64,000 nt of DNA, taken from positions 160,001 through 224,000 of the forward strand of contig CAWBZI010000002.1 in assembly GCA_963793265.1 (NCBI GenBank), given 5' to 3'. The position numbers were made by a program. Shown one piece after another: positions 21,001-30,000 of this stretch (position 1 is its first letter; each line of letters opens with the position of its first letter). This DNA is from an uncultured cyanobacterium. GTDB taxonomy: Bacteria; Cyanobacteriota; Cyanobacteriia; Phormidesmidales; Phormidesmidaceae.

Positions 21001-24000
21001 AAATCCATCAAGACTAGATCAGGTCGCTCTGATAGGGCTTTTTCAACAGCTTCGACGCCATCAGATGCGATCGCTACTTCATAGCCCTTTCGCTGCAACC
21101 GACGAGAAAGCATATCTCGATTGATCTCATTGTCTTCGACCAGCAGAATCTTGTGCATCGTTTAAGCGCCTCCTTTAGGCAACTTCGATGATTCTACGTC
21201 TTCACGCTGAGGCGCTGCGAGTAAATAATCAATCTCATCAATCAAAATCACCGGCAGCGATCGCCACTGTGGATGCTGGCGTAGCTCGCGAATAAATTCA
21301 AAGCCGTCCATGTCTGGCATCATTAAATCAAACAAAATAAAGCTTCCGTAGACTATAGAACTCAACTCTGAACACAAACATCTAACCAATGTCATGAATA
21401 GGAGCGTGACATTTGTCATATTGCCTTTCTCGCTCAATCGCGCTTCCCCTTTCTTGGCTATCTAAATAGAAAATGCCTAACGCTAAACGGATACTCTGTT
21501 TGTAAAAAATGCATAATAACAGCCCCATATTCTTGAGAAGTTGATGTATGGAAAATACGTTTAAGAGACTTCGTAATGGGACTTTTACAATCTGCCCTCC
21601 AACAGCAAACCGCGAGATTGATATATCGTCGCGGCATTGGCTACGAGCAGCGGCAGCTTCACAAGCAGGCGATCGCATCCTTCACTCAAGCGATCGCAAA
21701 AGGATACACACCAACTGCCAAAGCCCTCATTCACCGCGGCATCAGCCGACTGAATACGCAGAATACAGCAGGCGCGATCGCTGACTTTGACGCAGTTATT
21801 CAAACAGCTATCCAACAAAATGACGCGTCCTCATATCTCGCAGCGCAAGCCCTGTTCTTCAAAGGTAAAATCTACAGACAAAAAGGAGACAACAAAGCCG
21901 CCTGGATTAGCTGGGCCGCAGCTATCGACTATTGTCCTACCTACGCGCAGCCCTACTATCACAGAGCTTTATTTTTGATTGAACAAGACAGGCCCAATAA
22001 AGCTTTGTCTGATTTAGATGCGGCCATAGAAATAGACCCTTCTATGGCGATCGCCTATCTTCAGCGCGGAAACTTGCGCTATCAAACCGGCAATATCGAG
22101 GGGGCGATTTTCGACTGGCAACATGCTCTGTGCAATGACTTCACCCTTAAGAGCGCCAAACAAGCGCTAGCAAAGCTTCAGCACGATACCTATCAAGATC
22201 AGCTTAGCCAGGTTCTAGTAGCGCCCTTGGCAGAAAAAGAGCTAAGCGTAAAAGTTCGCTACCAAAGCGATCGCAGCCAAGATAGCAGCCAAAGCAACTG
22301 CCTCAATATCTACGTGCACAGAGAAACCGGCAAAGGCGTTAACTACTACACGCTGCCCGATCTTATTCGTCAGCATTTAGTGCCACTACAGCTAGATAGC
22401 ATTAGTCGCTTTCGGCTCATTGGCACAGTTGGCAACGCAACTGGGCCCGACTGGGATAAATCTTACGACCTCTATAAAAATCAGCCCTGTCCGCCTAGCA
22501 ACTGGCAGGCCGCTATCTTCGCAACCCTGCTGTTTCCACCCCTGGCGGTTCCTGCTTTCATTCAAGCTGCGAGCGTAAAACGTACCTATGCAAAAGGTAA
22601 ATATATTAACGCGCTCAACGCCTCTAAACTGGTCGGCATTTTTAGCGCTGCCAGCAGTATTCCATTTTGCTTTTTCGTATTTTTGATGGTCATCTGCGCC
22701 AGCTACGACGAAACAGGAATCAAGTTCAGCGATCGGCCCGCTGTAAGAATTGTAAGCTGTTCAAAGGATTCGTACTCACTCTGCATAAAAACGACGCCTG
22801 GCCTTTGAGAGCACTGTAGAGGTTGCTGTGAGCGAACCTTAATGCTTAAAAAATAGTCAAAAGCTGGATAGCTAAAAAAACTTGATAGCCGAAAACTTGC
22901 CTAGAACCGATGAACCTATCTGCCGAACGTTTAGAACAAACCCAGCTAGACGCTCACCTGCGGCAGCTAGCCATCACCGCCCAAAGGCAACCCAAGGGAA
23001 GCCTGGCCAGGCAGCGCGCGCTAACTGAGCTAATTAGCACAATGTTGCGATCGCACAAGCTATGCCGTCCTCGTCGGGGTCAGTTCAGGCTTTTGTACGA
23101 AGAAATCTACGCAGAAGCGCTCCAACGGCTGTTTTCGTTTGTGTGCGATCGCATTGACGACTACAGCGAGCAAAAGGGCGAGGTTCTGCAGTGGGTCAAC
23201 TTCTTACTCAGCCGACGTTTTTTTATCGAAGCCAGCCGAGACTATCTGCCGGTTGTGTACAAAGGAATGGATGCTAGAAGCGTTAAGCGACTGACGCTAG
23301 AGCATTTAGACCAAAGCAACCCTAGCGAGCTAAACCCCCAGCTCACCCCGTCACTCTCTCAAGAAGTGAAAGCCTGCTTGGAAGAAGACCCAGAGAGCCT
23401 ATTCAAAGCGGCCTGCGTTGCCGACGCTCCCGCCGCTAATTTTCAGTACATTGCACTGAAGCGGCTAGAAGGCTATTCCTGGCAAGATCTCTCTACTGAA
23501 CTCAATATCTCGGTGCCAACCTTGAGCAGCTTCTATCGCCGAGCGCTGGCCCGGTTTGCACCTAAATTAAGAACCTATCTATCTTAAGTTTTTATCCTAG
23601 CTTTTATCCGCTCACCTTCCGACTTAATTTCAATCGCTAGAGCACCTGAAATGACCTATTCTACCAAGCAATCGTTAACGCTGACTGTTCCCCTCACCCT
23701 AGCAAGTCACCACAAGGCGCAGCTATTCTATCAGCGCCATGCCAACCCGCACAAAGCAAAGCAAATCTATCTCAACACGCTGGCAGTCACGGCTGTTCAC
23801 ACCTACTTAAGCTGGCTTGGCATCGAGAGCGATTTGCAATCGAGCGACAGTTGGAACCCGGTAATGCAAACGCTCGCAGACACTGCCGATTTAGAAGTTT
23901 TGGGGCAAGGTAGGGTGGAGTGTCGCCCTGTATTGCCCAAGGCCACAGCCTGCTATATTCCCGCTGAAGCTAGCGCACATCGCATTGGCTATCTGCCCGT

Positions 24001-27000: not shown

Positions 27001-30000
27001 GGCAATTGTCGGCGGATTTCTAGCGTTTTGGCAATGGCCCTCAAAGCGTAAGGCGTGGGCGATCGCTCGAATAATGCTGAGCCTGGTAGGTGCGATCGCC
27101 CTCCTCTACGGGCTGAGCTTCCTTGGCTTGCTCAGGGGCCACTGGCTACCCTTCGTTTCACTGGCGCTGGCTTTGGTTTCATCTAGCATACTTGTGACCA
27201 TCTATTTGTTCGCTAGTCCTCAGAAGCAGTAGGTTATATCTTGGTATAATTACGCACAAAGCCGCCCAAGAATAACTAGATGAAAGCTTCCGCTCGACGC
27301 TTCAAACAACTTCCTAAGCGCTTCCTGGCGATCGCAGGTGCTATTACACTAGGGGCGACTGCAATCACCCTGACCACGCCCCCGGCAGAAGCTAGCCTGA
27401 GTCTATTGTCTGCCACCAAAAGCAAGCTAGCCAGAGGCAGAGTTCCTGGCCGCAGACGCGGTGGAGCCCGGCGCGGATCTTGTTCCAATACGCAAACGCC
27501 CTTGGTCGCAATCGTTGCTGCCACCGAGGTTGACACTGAAACGCTGCCTGAAACCTATGTAGGTGGAATAACTGCTGCCGAGTATCCTACCTTTTGGTTT
27601 GATGTGCCCTACTCACTTACGAATGAGCTAACCGCCGAGTTCGTTTTGCAAGATGACCTTGGCCAGGATGTGTACCGGGCTACTTCTGCTGAGTTTGCGA
27701 CGGCTGGGCAAACGCCTGGTGTGATGGGCATTGCGCTCCCGCCTGAGCTGGCACCGCTAGAAATTGGCAAAGTCTATCAGTGGTATTTCAAAGTTAACTG
27801 TGGTTCAGAAACGCCGCCTTATGTGCAAGGTGGAATTGAGAGAGTTGCGATCGCGCCTCGTCTGGCCAATCAGCTACGGGCGGCTACACCGTTAGAGCAA
27901 GCCGCGCTCTTTCAAGAAAATGAGCTTTGGTACGATGCGGTGACAATCCTCGCACCGCGCCATCGCGCCGAGCCTGATAATTCAACTATCCAGGCTATTT
28001 GGAACGATCTGTTGCAATCTTTAGATCTGCAATAGGCTAACTTCTCGCCTTTGTAGGCAACCGTCTCATATGTTAAGAAACGCCCATTGTCGCCTGCTAC
28101 TGCATAAATAACCCCTTAGAACTCAGAGATAGTCTTGGTTTAGCAATGACTTCTACCGTCTAAAAGCTATGAACTTTCCTTTGATAGACTATCTCGATCA
28201 ACTGTTCTTTAATACAGGCAATCCTCTTGTCTTAAGCCCAAAACGATACTGGCGTACTTATCGCGTTCGACATCTCAACCTATGTCTCAAAAAACAGCAA
28301 GACGTTTGTATATCCCGTAGGTTGGGTTAAGTCCCCGAAACCCAACAATCTCAACTCAAAATTCATACATGACGTGTTGTTATTTCTCTTTATCTTTTGG
28401 GCGTTGGGTTTCACGTGCGTTTAACCCAACCTACGGTGGATGCTGGGATATGGTCGGGTGTTGGGTTTCACGTGCGTTTAACCCAACCTACGGTGGATGC
28501 TGGAATATGGCCAGTCGTGGGGAGATTTGACGAATCCGTGATTGACGGGGTTGTTGTGGATGTATTTGACGTGATTTACGAAATCGCGCTCATCGCGAAT
28601 CTGATGCTCCCAAAAACGTCGCTGCCAAATAGCCTGCTCTTTTTTCTTAAGACGAGCTGACGATTGGTGATGCTTATACGCCGTTGGGCAACGACGACTA
28701 AAGTTAGATTTGATCAGCCGCCAGCGGGTCGAGAAATCAGCATCTCCATTGGGCAATGTCCAGATGCAGTGAAGATGATCGGGCAGTAGAACGATGGCGT
28801 CGATGTCAAACGGATGGCGCTGCTTGACAGTTGGGTTTCGGGGGCTAACTGGGGGTGGTTGGGTTTCGGGGGCTCAACCCAACCTACACGTATTTACTTT
28901 TTTTAATGGTTCAAAAGCTAGCTGGGAAATCTATGGGTGAACCAAGCTAGCTGAGTGGGCAAAGACGATGGTAAAACGTAGGAAACTTCTGGGCTATGGC
29001 ACAGCAGGAATAGCGACTGCTTCGGCGCTAACGGCCTGTAGCAAAACCGTTGCGACGATACCCGCTCCCGAAATTAATAGTTCCGCTCTACCATCAGTGC
29101 GCTGGCGACTGACTGTTGCTTTTCCAAAATTCTTAGACGTTCTCTACGATACCGCCGAAAATATCTGTCAAAGAGTCAGTGAAATGACCGATGGAAAGTT
29201 TGTAATTATTCCCCACGCACCCGGAGAAATTGCGCCTACCTCGGAAGTCACGGAAGCTGTGAGAACAGGCAAAGCCGACTGTGGCTTTACCGCTAGCGTG
29301 TTAGACGGCGATGCGTACAAAGCTTTTTATATTTTCTCTTCTCTACCCTTTGGGCTCACCGCTCATCAGCACAATGCCTGGCTCTACTACGGCGGTGGCC
29401 TAGAGATTCTACAAAAGCAGTATGCCAGCATCGGTATTAAAAGCTTTCCTGCTAGCAATACGGGCACGCAGATGGGCGGCTGGTTTAGAAAAGAAATTAA
29501 CTCGCTCGAAGACTTGAAGGGTTTAAGGTTTAGAGTGCCTGGCCTGGCCGCAGACGTTTTCAAGCAGTTGGGCGGAGAAGCCGTCTCAATAGCGCCTGAT
29601 AAAATTTTTACCGCGATAGAACAAGGCACCATTGACGCAGCAGAATTTGTTGGCCCCTATGACGACGAAAAGCTAGGGCTAAACCGGGTTGCGCCCTATT
29701 ACTACTACCCCGGCTGGTGGGAACCCGGCACTTCTCACGGGTTCAACATCAACATGGACGCTTGGGAAGCACTTCCCGCTGAGTATCAGCGAATTCTAGA
29801 GGCCGTTATTGCTGAAGGCCATATCAAAACCATCGCTAGATACGATGCTGTAAACAGCAAAGCTCTGCAAAAGATGCTGTCGCAGGGCACTAAAATTTCG
29901 GCATTTAGCAACGAGATTATGAGAGCAGCACAAGATATTGCCTTTGATTCTTATGAAGCATTCGCTCTTAAAGATGCCAACTTCAAAGAATCGTACACTA

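What a model noticed while it worked through the whole genome (the two positions that open the first line are those of the whole stretch)
22910..27232. DUF1822 is a soluble anti-sigma factor: six sigma / DUF1822 / caspase-like (CHAT) sensor triads
DUF1822 (g01974) is predicted to sequester the ECF-like sigma factor encoded just upstream (g01973) with its N-terminal domain and to dock on the N-terminal domain of the downstream CHAT protease-sensor (g01975) with its C-terminal beta-sandwich. An invariant Phe-Arg204-Ser in the flexible linker between the two domains is the predicted cut site, matching how HetF cuts the anti-sigma PatU3 (Arg|Ser). The genome has six DUF1822-CHAT modules with different sensor ends, so HetZ/PatU/HetF looks like one member of a general protease-gated sigma-release system.
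Evidence so far: Gene order: DUF1822 directly precedes a CHAT protein at six loci (C2:150242, C2:183651, C2:480709, C3:20252, C6:470644, C7:321089), four of them with a homologue of the unannotated sigma-like g01973 (g01973, g02217, g02595, g04229); the two families are near each other in 1,117 of 1,342 genomes that bear both. Sigma + DUF1822 model: score 0.74, best of 3 controls 0.14 (mark reached by 116 of 157 solved and 2 of 215 mismatched pairs), runs agree in 86% of contacts, partner pLDDT 77; DUF1822 residues 9-160 cover both sigma2 and sigma4 regions. Protease(1-365) + DUF1822 model: 0.65 against 0.00, agreement 87%, pLDDT 74; DUF1822 residues 264-317 pair with protease residues 66-88. 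Arg204 in 66 of [...]
(Added by a program. Inside this text positions count along the whole contig: contig position 160,001 is position 1 of the stretch shown here. "Call 12" and the like, gene names such as g00115 and contig names such as C1 are that model's own, and its searches are not shown. The text may have been shortened before it was handed on; [...] marks where a part breaks off. The agent that wrote the report below was given it as the finding of a first reader that could run no searches.)

Follow-up and report, generated by a model that had tools for sequence, protein, structure and literature searches.

The report
Protease-cut anti-sigma adaptor in cyanobacteria
A widespread but untested cyanobacterial protein (DUF1822) most likely holds a transcription factor inactive with one end, docks on a membrane sensor-protease with the other and is cut between them; the gene trio was already catalogued in 2021, but this role for DUF1822 was not.

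Summary
The genes are real: an ECF-type sigma factor, DUF1822, and a CHAT protease with intact His240/Cys283 fused to a CHASE2 sensor. The trio was described computationally in 2021 (PMC8195603), and this scan noted it on other genomes before. My tests support DUF1822 as a two-headed adaptor. Its N-domain is predicted to bind the sigma: complex score 0.79, best control 0.00, agreement at least 92%, pLDDT at least 76; that mark is reached by 116 of 157 solved and 2 of 215 mismatched pairs. Across 85 trios the N-domain tracks sigma type, while the linker plus Ig domain tracks the protease. New here: the N-domain has a restriction-endonuclease fold, probably inactive; the C-terminal module probably shares ancestry with PatU; and a conserved promoter-like motif precedes the sigma. 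Corrections: only the Arg is near-invariant, not Phe-Arg-Ser; four of the six loci are strict trios; two share CHASE2 and one lacks a sensor. Cleavage at Arg204 is inferred, not shown, and would leave the sigma-binding domain whole, so a second degradation step is needed. Verdict: new variant of a known kind.

The parts
22782..22810 (+). Promoter-like bipartite motif TGCRTAAAA-N16-GAG(A/T), 100 nt before the sigma gene; candidate self-promoter of the sigma
   Evidence: In 11 of 39 upstream regions of related sigma genes, all with a 16-nt spacer (pattern drawn from these regions); 4 further matches among 95 other upstream regions; best-scoring site of the genome with a matrix trained without it
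22910..23587 (+). Divergent ECF-type sigma factor, 225 aa (sigma2 about residues 9-112, sigma4 about 148-224)
   Evidence: Pfam Sigma70_r4_2 E 8.5e-5, under cut-off; model pLDDT 83; top five structural matches are ECF sigma2 domains, best Z 9.6, rmsd 2.0, 86 residues
23675..24130 (+). DUF1822 N-domain (residues 9-160): PD-(D/E)XK nuclease-like fold, predicted sigma-binding domain
   Evidence: Matches I-Ssp6803I (Z 9.2, rmsd 3.1, 118 residues) and Hjc-type resolvases (Z 8.4, 7.8); holds all confident contacts with the sigma
24167..24235 (+). Two-tryptophan segment (residues 173-195; W179, W188) that travels with the C-terminal module
   Evidence: W179 138 of 143, W188 142 of 143; present in forms lacking the N-domain
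24260..24262 (+). Arg204, predicted scissile residue in a disordered linker
   Evidence: 143 of 150; pLDDT under 50 at 204-207 and 209-215; alignment-free motif test 111 of 142 against shuffle mean 32, max 47
24317..24655 (+). DUF1822 C-domain (residues 223-334): Ig-like beta-sandwich, inferred protease-docking domain, probably related to the PatU C-terminus
   Evidence: Fold; co-varies with EACC2/caspase; profile match to PatU E 0.004; PatU clusters are the top two Atlas hits, 0.81 and 0.80, lead-level scores
24671..25786 (+). Cytoplasmic EACC2 domain plus CHAT (caspase-like) protease; His240 at 25388-25390, Cys283 at 25517-25519
   Evidence: Pfam CHAT; motifs; dyad kept in 82 of 85 trios; the EACC2 label is taken from PMC8195603 by architecture
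25976..27232 (+). Membrane helix, extracytoplasmic CHASE2 sensor domain and C-terminal membrane helices
   Evidence: Pfam CHASE2 residues 444-782; hydrophobic peaks at residues 436, 803, 828
27280..28035 (+). DUF928 protein with an N-terminal hydrophobic segment; probable exported accessory of the sensor
   Evidence: Pfam DUF928 E 7e-51; DUF928 also follows two other own-genome loci; hydropathy
28101..28129 (+). Second, weaker copy of the promoter-like motif just after the operon; no ORF of 70 aa or more close behind it on this strand
   Evidence: Matrix score 19.8, sixth best in the genome; ORF list; may be chance

Best explanation
DUF1822 is a soluble two-headed adaptor that works as a protease-gated anti-sigma factor. 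Its nuclease-fold N-domain, most likely catalytically dead, clamps sigma2 and sigma4 of the upstream ECF-type sigma (predicted). Its Trp segment, Arg linker and Ig domain form a separate module that is recognised by the EACC2-CHAT part of the downstream membrane sensor (inferred from genomics). A signal at the CHASE2 domain switches on the His240/Cys283 protease, which cuts after Arg204 (inferred). The cut alone leaves the clamp whole, so the N-fragment is probably then removed by a general protease, freeing the sigma to transcribe from TGCRTAAAA-N16-GAGA promoters, including its own (inferred). My odds by step: binds the sigma 0.85; inhibits it 0.75; cut at Arg204 by the linked protease 0.7; whole chain 0.6.
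For: Complex model 0.79, best of 3 controls 0.00; mark reached by 116 of 157 solved and 2 of 215 mismatched pairs (counts hold roughly, own alignments used); agreement at least 92%; partner pLDDT at least 76; contacts only from residues 9-160, over sigma residues 64-80 and the sigma4 helix 201-213. A sigma-like gene directly precedes 127 of 143 two-domain DUF1822 (77 short, 50 long type), an EACC2-CHAT gene directly follows 100, both 90. In three genomes of another class the N-domain heads a 930-1055 aa protein directly before a true ECF sigma (TIGR02937 62-67 bits, cut-off 42.9). Split co-variation in 85 trios: the nearest N-domain has the same sigma type in 85 of 85; partial r N~sigma type 0.78, C~sigma type -0.14; C~EACC2 0.63, N~EACC2 0.08. 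Four of 9 forms without the N-domain (NTPase, TRADD-N, PIN and one unnamed head) still precede an EACC2-CHAT. Forms with another tail keep the sigma, and four sit before TPR-CHAT proteins instead. The Arg floats 8-63 residues from W188; 135 of 142 linkers hold an Arg against 112 expected, and 4 of the other 7 have F-K. No membrane helix in the window's protein. Precedents: HetF cuts PatU3 at R117|S118 (PMC9457339); PatU3 inhibits sigma-HetZ (PMC13342950); Csx29 cuts the anti-sigma Csx30 (PMC10028731).
Against: No binding, cleavage or transcription experiment. A cut at Arg204 leaves every predicted sigma contact in place. 42 of 143 two-domain proteins have no EACC2-CHAT directly downstream, yet 37 of these keep the Arg, and five 19-kb windows around such orphans show no CHAT hit: either the protease is unlinked, as HetF is from patU, or the Arg has another role. 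Three linkers read L-M-S instead of Arg; the two whose protease was aligned have an intact dyad. Within the short-sigma trios alone (n 62) the split points the same way but both bootstrap intervals include zero. The split could partly reflect gene order, since each half lies next to its partner gene, and the loci are related. D80 and E90 are kept in 72 of 77 short-sigma proteins and are not among the listed sigma contacts, so a second function is open. The promoter motif is not enriched genome-wide (15 sites at the right spacing, 3-14 at shifted spacings).
Confidence: 0.6

Rival explanations
1. Tether-and-release or co-activator: DUF1822 binds the sigma, but the N-domain stays with it after cleavage, as a chaperone or as a DNA-binding helper (nuclease fold) for this divergent sigma. 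The cut frees the pair from the membrane sensor rather than destroying an inhibitor.
For: The cut leaves the binding domain whole; the fold is a nucleic-acid-binding one with conserved D80/E90 outside the listed interface; one natural protein fuses a long-type sigma directly to the Arg linker and Ig domain with no N-domain (L168).
Against: The model covers the sigma4 helix 201-213 and residues 64-80, which by general knowledge of ECF factors are the -35-reading and core-binding surfaces (recalled, not tested). PatU3, the likely relative, inhibits its sigma.
Confidence: 0.15
2. Autoproteolytic sensor as proposed in 2021: the caspase cuts itself, DUF1822 is only a scaffold joining sensor and sigma, and Arg204 is a binding motif, not a scissile bond.
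For: PMC8195603 section 9 proposes autopeptidase activation; the Arg is kept in orphans with no neighbouring protease; three linkers lack Arg and Lys.
Against: A near-invariant Arg at variable spacing in a disordered linker resembles the PatU site that HetF cuts in trans.
Confidence: 0.13
3. Conflict-system effector: the N-domain is an active PD-(D/E)XK nuclease held in check and unleashed by cleavage; the sigma is its inhibitor or a parallel output.
For: Fold match to I-Ssp6803I, Hjc and restriction enzymes; D80 72 of 77, E90 72 of 77 in short-sigma types, D...D-x-R in the other class; the same C-terminal module carries PIN, TRADD-N and NTPase heads elsewhere.
Against: The Lys position is Arg in 63 of 77 and Cys, Leu or other residues in the rest; D80 is replaced in the long-sigma types (commonest Ala 20, Asn 12 of 50); no PADLOC match for the four genes. 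The mapping of D80/E90/R92 to the active site rests on strand positions and recall, not on a residue-level superposition.
Confidence: 0.07
4. The genes are co-inherited without direct contact between DUF1822 and the sigma; the model pass is a false positive.
For: 2 of 215 mismatched pairs reach the mark, and own alignments were not calibrated.
Against: The N-domain stays next to sigma genes of three sequence types (short, long, ordinary ECF) across two classes; controls score 0.00.
Confidence: 0.05

Closest known systems
EACC2-caspase neighbourhoods with an ECF sigma and DUF1822 (Kaur et al. 2021, eLife, PMC8195603; section 9 read in full, supplements searched for two terms, 12 of 13 files)
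   Same: Same three genes, same variable sensor ends (CHASE2, STAND NTPase and others), same idea of protease-triggered transcription.
   Different: In the passages read, the paper calls DUF1822 a TPR protein and proposes self-cleavage of the caspase. It does not name DUF1822 as anti-sigma or substrate. The model here shows a nuclease fold plus an Ig fold, not TPRs.
HetF / PatU3 / sigma-HetZ of Anabaena PCC 7120 (PMC9457339: passages and section 8; PMC13342950: parts 1-4 of 7)
   Same: CHAT protease of the same family (profile match 99.7%, E 8e-26); cut after Arg in a soluble sigma inhibitor encoded after its ECF-type sigma; probably homologous C-terminal beta-sandwich.
   Different: PatU's N-terminal part does not match DUF1822-N (E 0.12-0.43); HetF's first 125 residues do not match EACC2 (E 0.11); hetF is not next to hetZ-patU in this genome; the sigma lacks HetZ's length and matches it only in sigma4 (E 0.004). 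The genome has its own hetZ-patU and a HetF-like gene besides these trios.
Type III-E CRISPR Csx29 / Csx30 / CASP-sigma (PMC10028731; passages)
   Same: A CHAT protease cuts a soluble two-domain anti-sigma whose N-domain binds an ECF sigma and whose C-domain docks on the protease; the same puzzle that the cut leaves the binding domain whole.
   Different: Triggered by RNA on Cas7-11; no single residue is essential for that cut; homology of Csx30 to DUF1822 was not tested and no Csx30 model was hit.
DdvA / DdvS of Myxococcus xanthus (PMC11506125; abstract only)
   Same: CHAT domain coupled to release of an ECF sigma.
   Different: DdvA is itself the membrane anti-sigma, with a periplasmic TPR-CHAT and a zinc-binding domain; here protease and anti-sigma are separate and cytoplasmic.

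Membership tests
EACC2-caspase / ECF sigma / DUF1822 neighbourhood (Kaur 2021) | Constant N-terminal domain plus caspase domain with a variable sensor C-terminus | tested here: met
   no EACC2 model was available, so the label rests on architecture and the paper's listed EACC2+CASPASE+CHASE2 type
EACC2-caspase / ECF sigma / DUF1822 neighbourhood (Kaur 2021) | Adjacent ECF sigma and DUF1822 genes | tested here: met
ECF (group 4) sigma factor | sigma2 and sigma4 domains | tested here: met
   sigma2 by structure, Z 9.6, rmsd 2.0, 86 residues; sigma4 by Pfam E 8.5e-5, below the cut-off
ECF (group 4) sigma factor | Binds core polymerase and directs promoter-specific transcription | not testable with these tools
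   Only a candidate promoter motif
Anti-sigma factor (functional class) | Binds the cognate sigma | tested here: inconclusive
   Model supports but does not show binding: 0.79 against 0.00
Anti-sigma factor (functional class) | Inhibits sigma-dependent transcription | not testable with these tools
   Needs an assay
CHAT / clan CD peptidase | His-Cys dyad in a CHAT domain | tested here: met
   H240 and C283; 82 of 85 trios
HetZ/PatU/HetF system | Sigma is a HetZ-family member | tested here: not met
   No HetZ model hit for the window sigma; the HetZ model finds three other genes; profile match only in sigma4
HetZ/PatU/HetF system | Inhibitor is a PatU homologue over its length | tested here: not met
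   N-terminal parts do not match; full-length E 0.04-0.07
HetZ/PatU/HetF system | Shared C-terminal beta-sandwich behind the scissile Arg | tested here: inconclusive
   E 0.004-0.005, score 20 against a shuffled maximum of 14.8, probability under 10%; Atlas top two hits are PatU at 0.81 and 0.80, lead-level
HetZ/PatU/HetF system | Protease is a HetF equivalog | tested here: not met
   35 bits against a cut-off of 1200; a separate HetF-like gene scores 630 bits
PD-(D/E)XK nuclease superfamily | Core alpha/beta fold | tested here: met
   Top three structural matches, Z 9.2, 8.4, 7.8; several more in the list; Z values are moderate and Foldseek gave no match at E 0.001
PD-(D/E)XK nuclease superfamily | Complete catalytic Asp...(Asp/Glu)-x-Lys set | tested here: inconclusive
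   D80...E90-C-R92 in short-sigma types, decayed in long-sigma types; no residue-level superposition available

The most novel reading that the evidence does not exclude
The Arg linker plus Ig domain is a portable 'cut-me' tag for cyanobacterial CHAT sensor-proteases, shared by DUF1822, PatU and assorted TRADD-N, PIN, NTPase and sigma fusions. DUF1822-N is an undescribed class of anti-sigma domain made from a restriction-enzyme fold and older than the split of the phylum's classes. The heterocyst switch HetF/PatU/HetZ would then be one specialised offshoot of a phylum-wide, swappable, protease-gated sigma signalling kit, present in up to 11 matches per genome in my sample.
Probability: 0.4. 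Interest if true: 0.8.

Novelty: new variant of a known kind. Interest (0 to 1): 0.6.

Why it matters
Many cyanobacteria carry several caspase-like sensor proteins with no known substrate or output; DUF1822 matched in 89 of 151 genomes sampled across the phylum. This reading names the substrate, the residue cut, the sigma released and a candidate promoter, so the pathway can be rebuilt in E. coli with the system already used for sigma-HetZ. It would also give a function to a DUF, add a nuclease-derived fold to the known anti-sigma domains, and give the heterocyst HetF-PatU switch an evolutionary context.

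Tried and rejected
Sequence search of solved structures: nothing for the DUF1822 profile, nothing useful for the sigma, one weak CHAT hit for the protease. 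Foldseek: no match at E 0.001 for either model. Atlas search with the N-domain: no usable hit. Search for longer fusions among 586-2000 aa proteins: 4 hits, none with a CHAT or sigma domain listed, two with GAF; weak evidence. Co-variation of the P1 residue with acidic protease residues: the changes seen beside Met-type linkers are clade-wide and also occur beside Arg linkers; rejected. EACC2 versus HetF N-terminus: no match. Regulon search: no genome-wide excess of the promoter motif. PADLOC: no match. Expression: no RNA holder listed. Metagenome contigs from two studies cover the locus in pieces, none spanning it whole, and one may be the source sample. Catalytic residues of the giant TPR-CHAT partners were not verified: my motif pattern found none. 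'TPR protein' for DUF1822 rejected by the model. Literature: searches for DUF1822 (2 papers), PatU3+HetF+HetZ, HetZ+sigma factor, CHAT domain+anti-sigma+caspase, EACC2+caspase, CHAT+CHASE2+caspase, PatU/anti-sigma/HetF/proteolysis and restriction endonuclease fold+anti-sigma showed no paper that gives DUF1822 an anti-sigma role; most were seen as listings only, and the library lacks most subscription journals. File 13 of the PMC8195603 supplements and all supplements of PMC13342950 (including its sigma-HetZ homologue tree) were not seen and may bear on novelty.

Full report
OBSERVATION. The window holds four co-oriented genes: 22910-23587 (225 aa), 23651-24655 (334 aa, DUF1822), 24671-27232 (853 aa, CHAT + CHASE2) and 27280-28035 (DUF928). 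The protease keeps His240 and Cys283 ahead of the first membrane helix at residue 436, so it is cytoplasmic like DUF1822, which has no hydrophobic helix. In the genome, DUF1822 directly precedes a homologous protease at the six places named. At C3 the sigma follows the protease and heads a seventh DUF1822; C7 is an NTPase fused to the C-terminal half only. The sensor ends are CHASE2 twice, nSTAND1-WD40, a periplasmic binding protein, an unnamed 5-TM domain, and none. An eighth, degenerate C-domain fragment lies at C6:250421.

PRIOR WORK. Kaur et al. [quoted passage not shown] So the trio is known. Xing et al. 2022 (PMC9457339, passages and section 8) show that HetF cuts PatU3 at R117|S118 and that only the Arg is essential. 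Hu et al. [quoted passage not shown] PMC10028731 (passages) shows a CHAT protease cutting the anti-sigma Csx30. This scan had noted the trio on other genomes at least eight times; a second look-up for PatU homology plus nuclease fold returned nothing.

THE SIGMA. Pfam gives only a sub-threshold sigma4 match. The model (pLDDT 83) has two helical domains; its five best matches among 48,161 chains are ECF sigma2 domains (SigC Z 9.6, rmsd 2.0, 86 residues; SigK 9.2; SigW 9.0). Foldseek is weak (best E 0.044), though its leading rows are all sigma factors. Several close relatives are already named sigma-70 family by NCBI.

DUF1822 ANATOMY. The model (pLDDT 88) shows an alpha/beta N-domain, a short two-Trp segment, a disordered linker (pLDDT under 50 at 204-207 and 209-215) and a beta-sandwich. 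The N-domain's best matches are PD-(D/E)XK enzymes: I-Ssp6803I (Z 9.2, rmsd 3.1, 118 residues) and Hjc-type resolvases (8.4, 7.8). D80...E90-C-R92 sits where, from recall, the catalytic motif should be. It is kept in short-sigma types (D80 72 of 77, E90 72 of 77, R92 63 of 77) but decays in long-sigma types, which argues for a dead nuclease used as a binding module.

SIGMA BINDING. My one complex job (sigma + full-length DUF1822, own alignments of 105 and 149 rows) scored 0.79, best of three controls 0.00; the mark is reached by 116 of 157 solved and 2 of 215 mismatched pairs, counts that hold only roughly with own alignments; runs agree in at least 92% of contacts; partner pLDDT at least 76. 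All confident contacts come from DUF1822 residues 9-160 and cover sigma residues 30-46, 64-80, 125-154 and 182-224. By general knowledge of ECF factors, 64-80 is the core-binding helix and 201-213 the -35-reading helix, so the pose is inhibitory. It is a prediction.

COMPARATIVE GENOMICS. I gathered 175 distinct DUF1822-domain proteins with neighbours: 34 loci by pattern search, 30 top matches and 100 hand-picked regions from a 151-genome phylum sample in which 89 genomes matched, plus this genome. The set leans to high-scoring matches and related genomes. 143 are two-domain; I set aside 21 scored as N-only (including truncated copies, two with a divergent C-domain and three long proteins of another class), 9 C-only and 2 fragments. 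Of the 143, 127 directly follow a sigma-like gene, 100 directly precede an EACC2-CHAT gene, and 90 do both. In 85 complete trios the N-domain's nearest neighbour always has the same sigma type (85 of 85), whereas the C-module and EACC2 each cross types in 8 cases; partial rank correlations are N~sigma type 0.78, C~sigma type -0.14, C~EACC2 0.63, N~EACC2 0.08. Within the 62 short-sigma trios the differences point the same way but the intervals include zero. Gene order and kinship could inflate the split. Natural domain swaps agree: 4 of 9 C-only forms precede an EACC2-CHAT, with NTPase, TRADD-N, PIN or unnamed heads; forms with a different helical tail keep the sigma, and four of them precede 1,585-1,675 aa TPR-CHAT proteins, while three others checked show no CHAT downstream and one locus is broken; in three genomes of another class the N-domain heads a large protein directly before an ordinary ECF sigma.

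THE ARG. Arg204 is in 143 of 150 close relatives, but Phe only in 114 and Ser in 52. Because aligners pull Arg residues together in variable linkers, I tested without alignment: 135 of 142 linkers hold an Arg (112 expected), a hydrophobic/small-Arg-small motif occurs in 111 (shuffles: mean 32, max 47; motif chosen after seeing the data), and a control linker shows 23 against a mean of 13. Spacing from W188 varies from 8 to 63 residues, as fits a recognition site. Against: 37 of 42 proteins with no adjacent EACC2-CHAT keep it, five such loci have no CHAT hit within 19 kb, and three linkers have Met instead.

LINK TO PatU. Thirty complete PatU proteins from hetZ loci all keep an Arg at the position that I map, by its Y-R-S context, to the HetF site; Anabaena PatU3 itself was not fetched. 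They end in a beta-rich domain that aligns with DUF1822's C-domain to the last residue (E 0.004, 57 columns, score 20 against a shuffled maximum of 14.8, probability under 10%); full-length comparison gives E 0.04. Independently, the Atlas returned PatU clusters as the top two hits for residues 170-334 (0.81, 0.80; below the level the tool calls more than a lead). I put homology at about 0.65. The N-terminal parts do not match, and EACC2 does not match HetF's N-terminus. So this works like HetF/PatU/HetZ and probably shares one module with it, but is not a member.

PROMOTER. Prompted by two earlier scan notes, I looked upstream of related sigma genes. TGCRTAAAA-N16-GAG(A/T) occurs in 11 of 39 regions, always with a 16-nt spacer, and in 4 more of 95 other regions (spacer 16 in three, 17 in one). 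The window's copy (22782-22810) is the best site in the genome under a matrix trained without it. There is no genome-wide excess, so no regulon can be named. Self-recognition by this sigma is an inference.

MECHANISM AND VERDICT. Shown by sequence: genes, dyad, topology, linkage, motif conservation. Predicted: folds and sigma binding. Inferred: docking, cut after Arg204, removal of the N-fragment, promoter use. The main gap is that the cut leaves the clamp whole, as with Csx30, so a second proteolytic step, or a tether-and-release variant, is needed. Best explanation 0.6. The trio and this regulatory logic are known; the role, fold and modular ancestry of DUF1822 were not found in the papers searched. 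New variant of a known kind, interest 0.6.

Noticed in passing
L040:1063-5959 (C6:1000062-1004958): PP2C phosphatase, HetF-like CHAT-FHA protein (549 aa) and a 203-aa PatU-like protein in a row; the last carries an A-M-R-G motif like the DUF1822 linker but has no beta-sandwich. A possible phosphorylation-gated third version of the switch.
   Followed up: partly
L035:2674-4170 (C2:148673-150169): 498-aa protein with no Pfam or NCBIfam match that is a full-length homologue of a long sigma-70 family; 19 such proteins precede DUF1822 genes in my set.
   Followed up: partly
L071, L103, L104 (extended as L217, L216, L215): DUF1822 proteins with Lys in place of the linker Arg are followed by trypsin-TPR genes instead of a CHAT gene; L141 and L144 are followed by Peptidase_C14 genes.
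   Followed up: partly
L168:1714-3843: Natural fusion of a long-type sigma domain to the Arg linker and Ig domain, with no nuclease-fold domain and no adjacent CHAT gene.
   Followed up: partly
L170-L172, L223: In small genomes of another class of the phylum, one DUF1822-N match per genome (45 of 50 in family f23); the three examined head a 930-1055 aa protein directly before an ECF sigma.
   Followed up: partly
L206-L209: DUF1822 forms with a helical tail holding a G-x-x-x-x-R-E-like motif precede giant TPR-CHAT proteins; a possible second docking and cleavage module.
   Followed up: partly
window 24275: A contig of run X2 has an in-frame 12-nt duplication four codons behind Arg204, showing that the linker tolerates length change.
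   Followed up: no
window 21576-22808: TPR protein with a C-terminal CD225-like membrane segment; its stop codon overlaps the downstream half of the promoter-like motif.
   Followed up: no
window 28397-28756: Short ORFs that look like the remains of a REP-associated transposase (recalled resemblance), beside a short repeated sequence.
   Followed up: no
L037 (C3:20222-29232): The double DUF1822 locus abuts a PglZ-domain gene on the other strand.
   Followed up: no
L233, L236, L238-L243, L246: Another clade of the short sigma has a different conserved upstream pattern (TGTAAA-like box followed by CAGAAT), seen by eye only; perhaps a clade-specific promoter.
   Followed up: no
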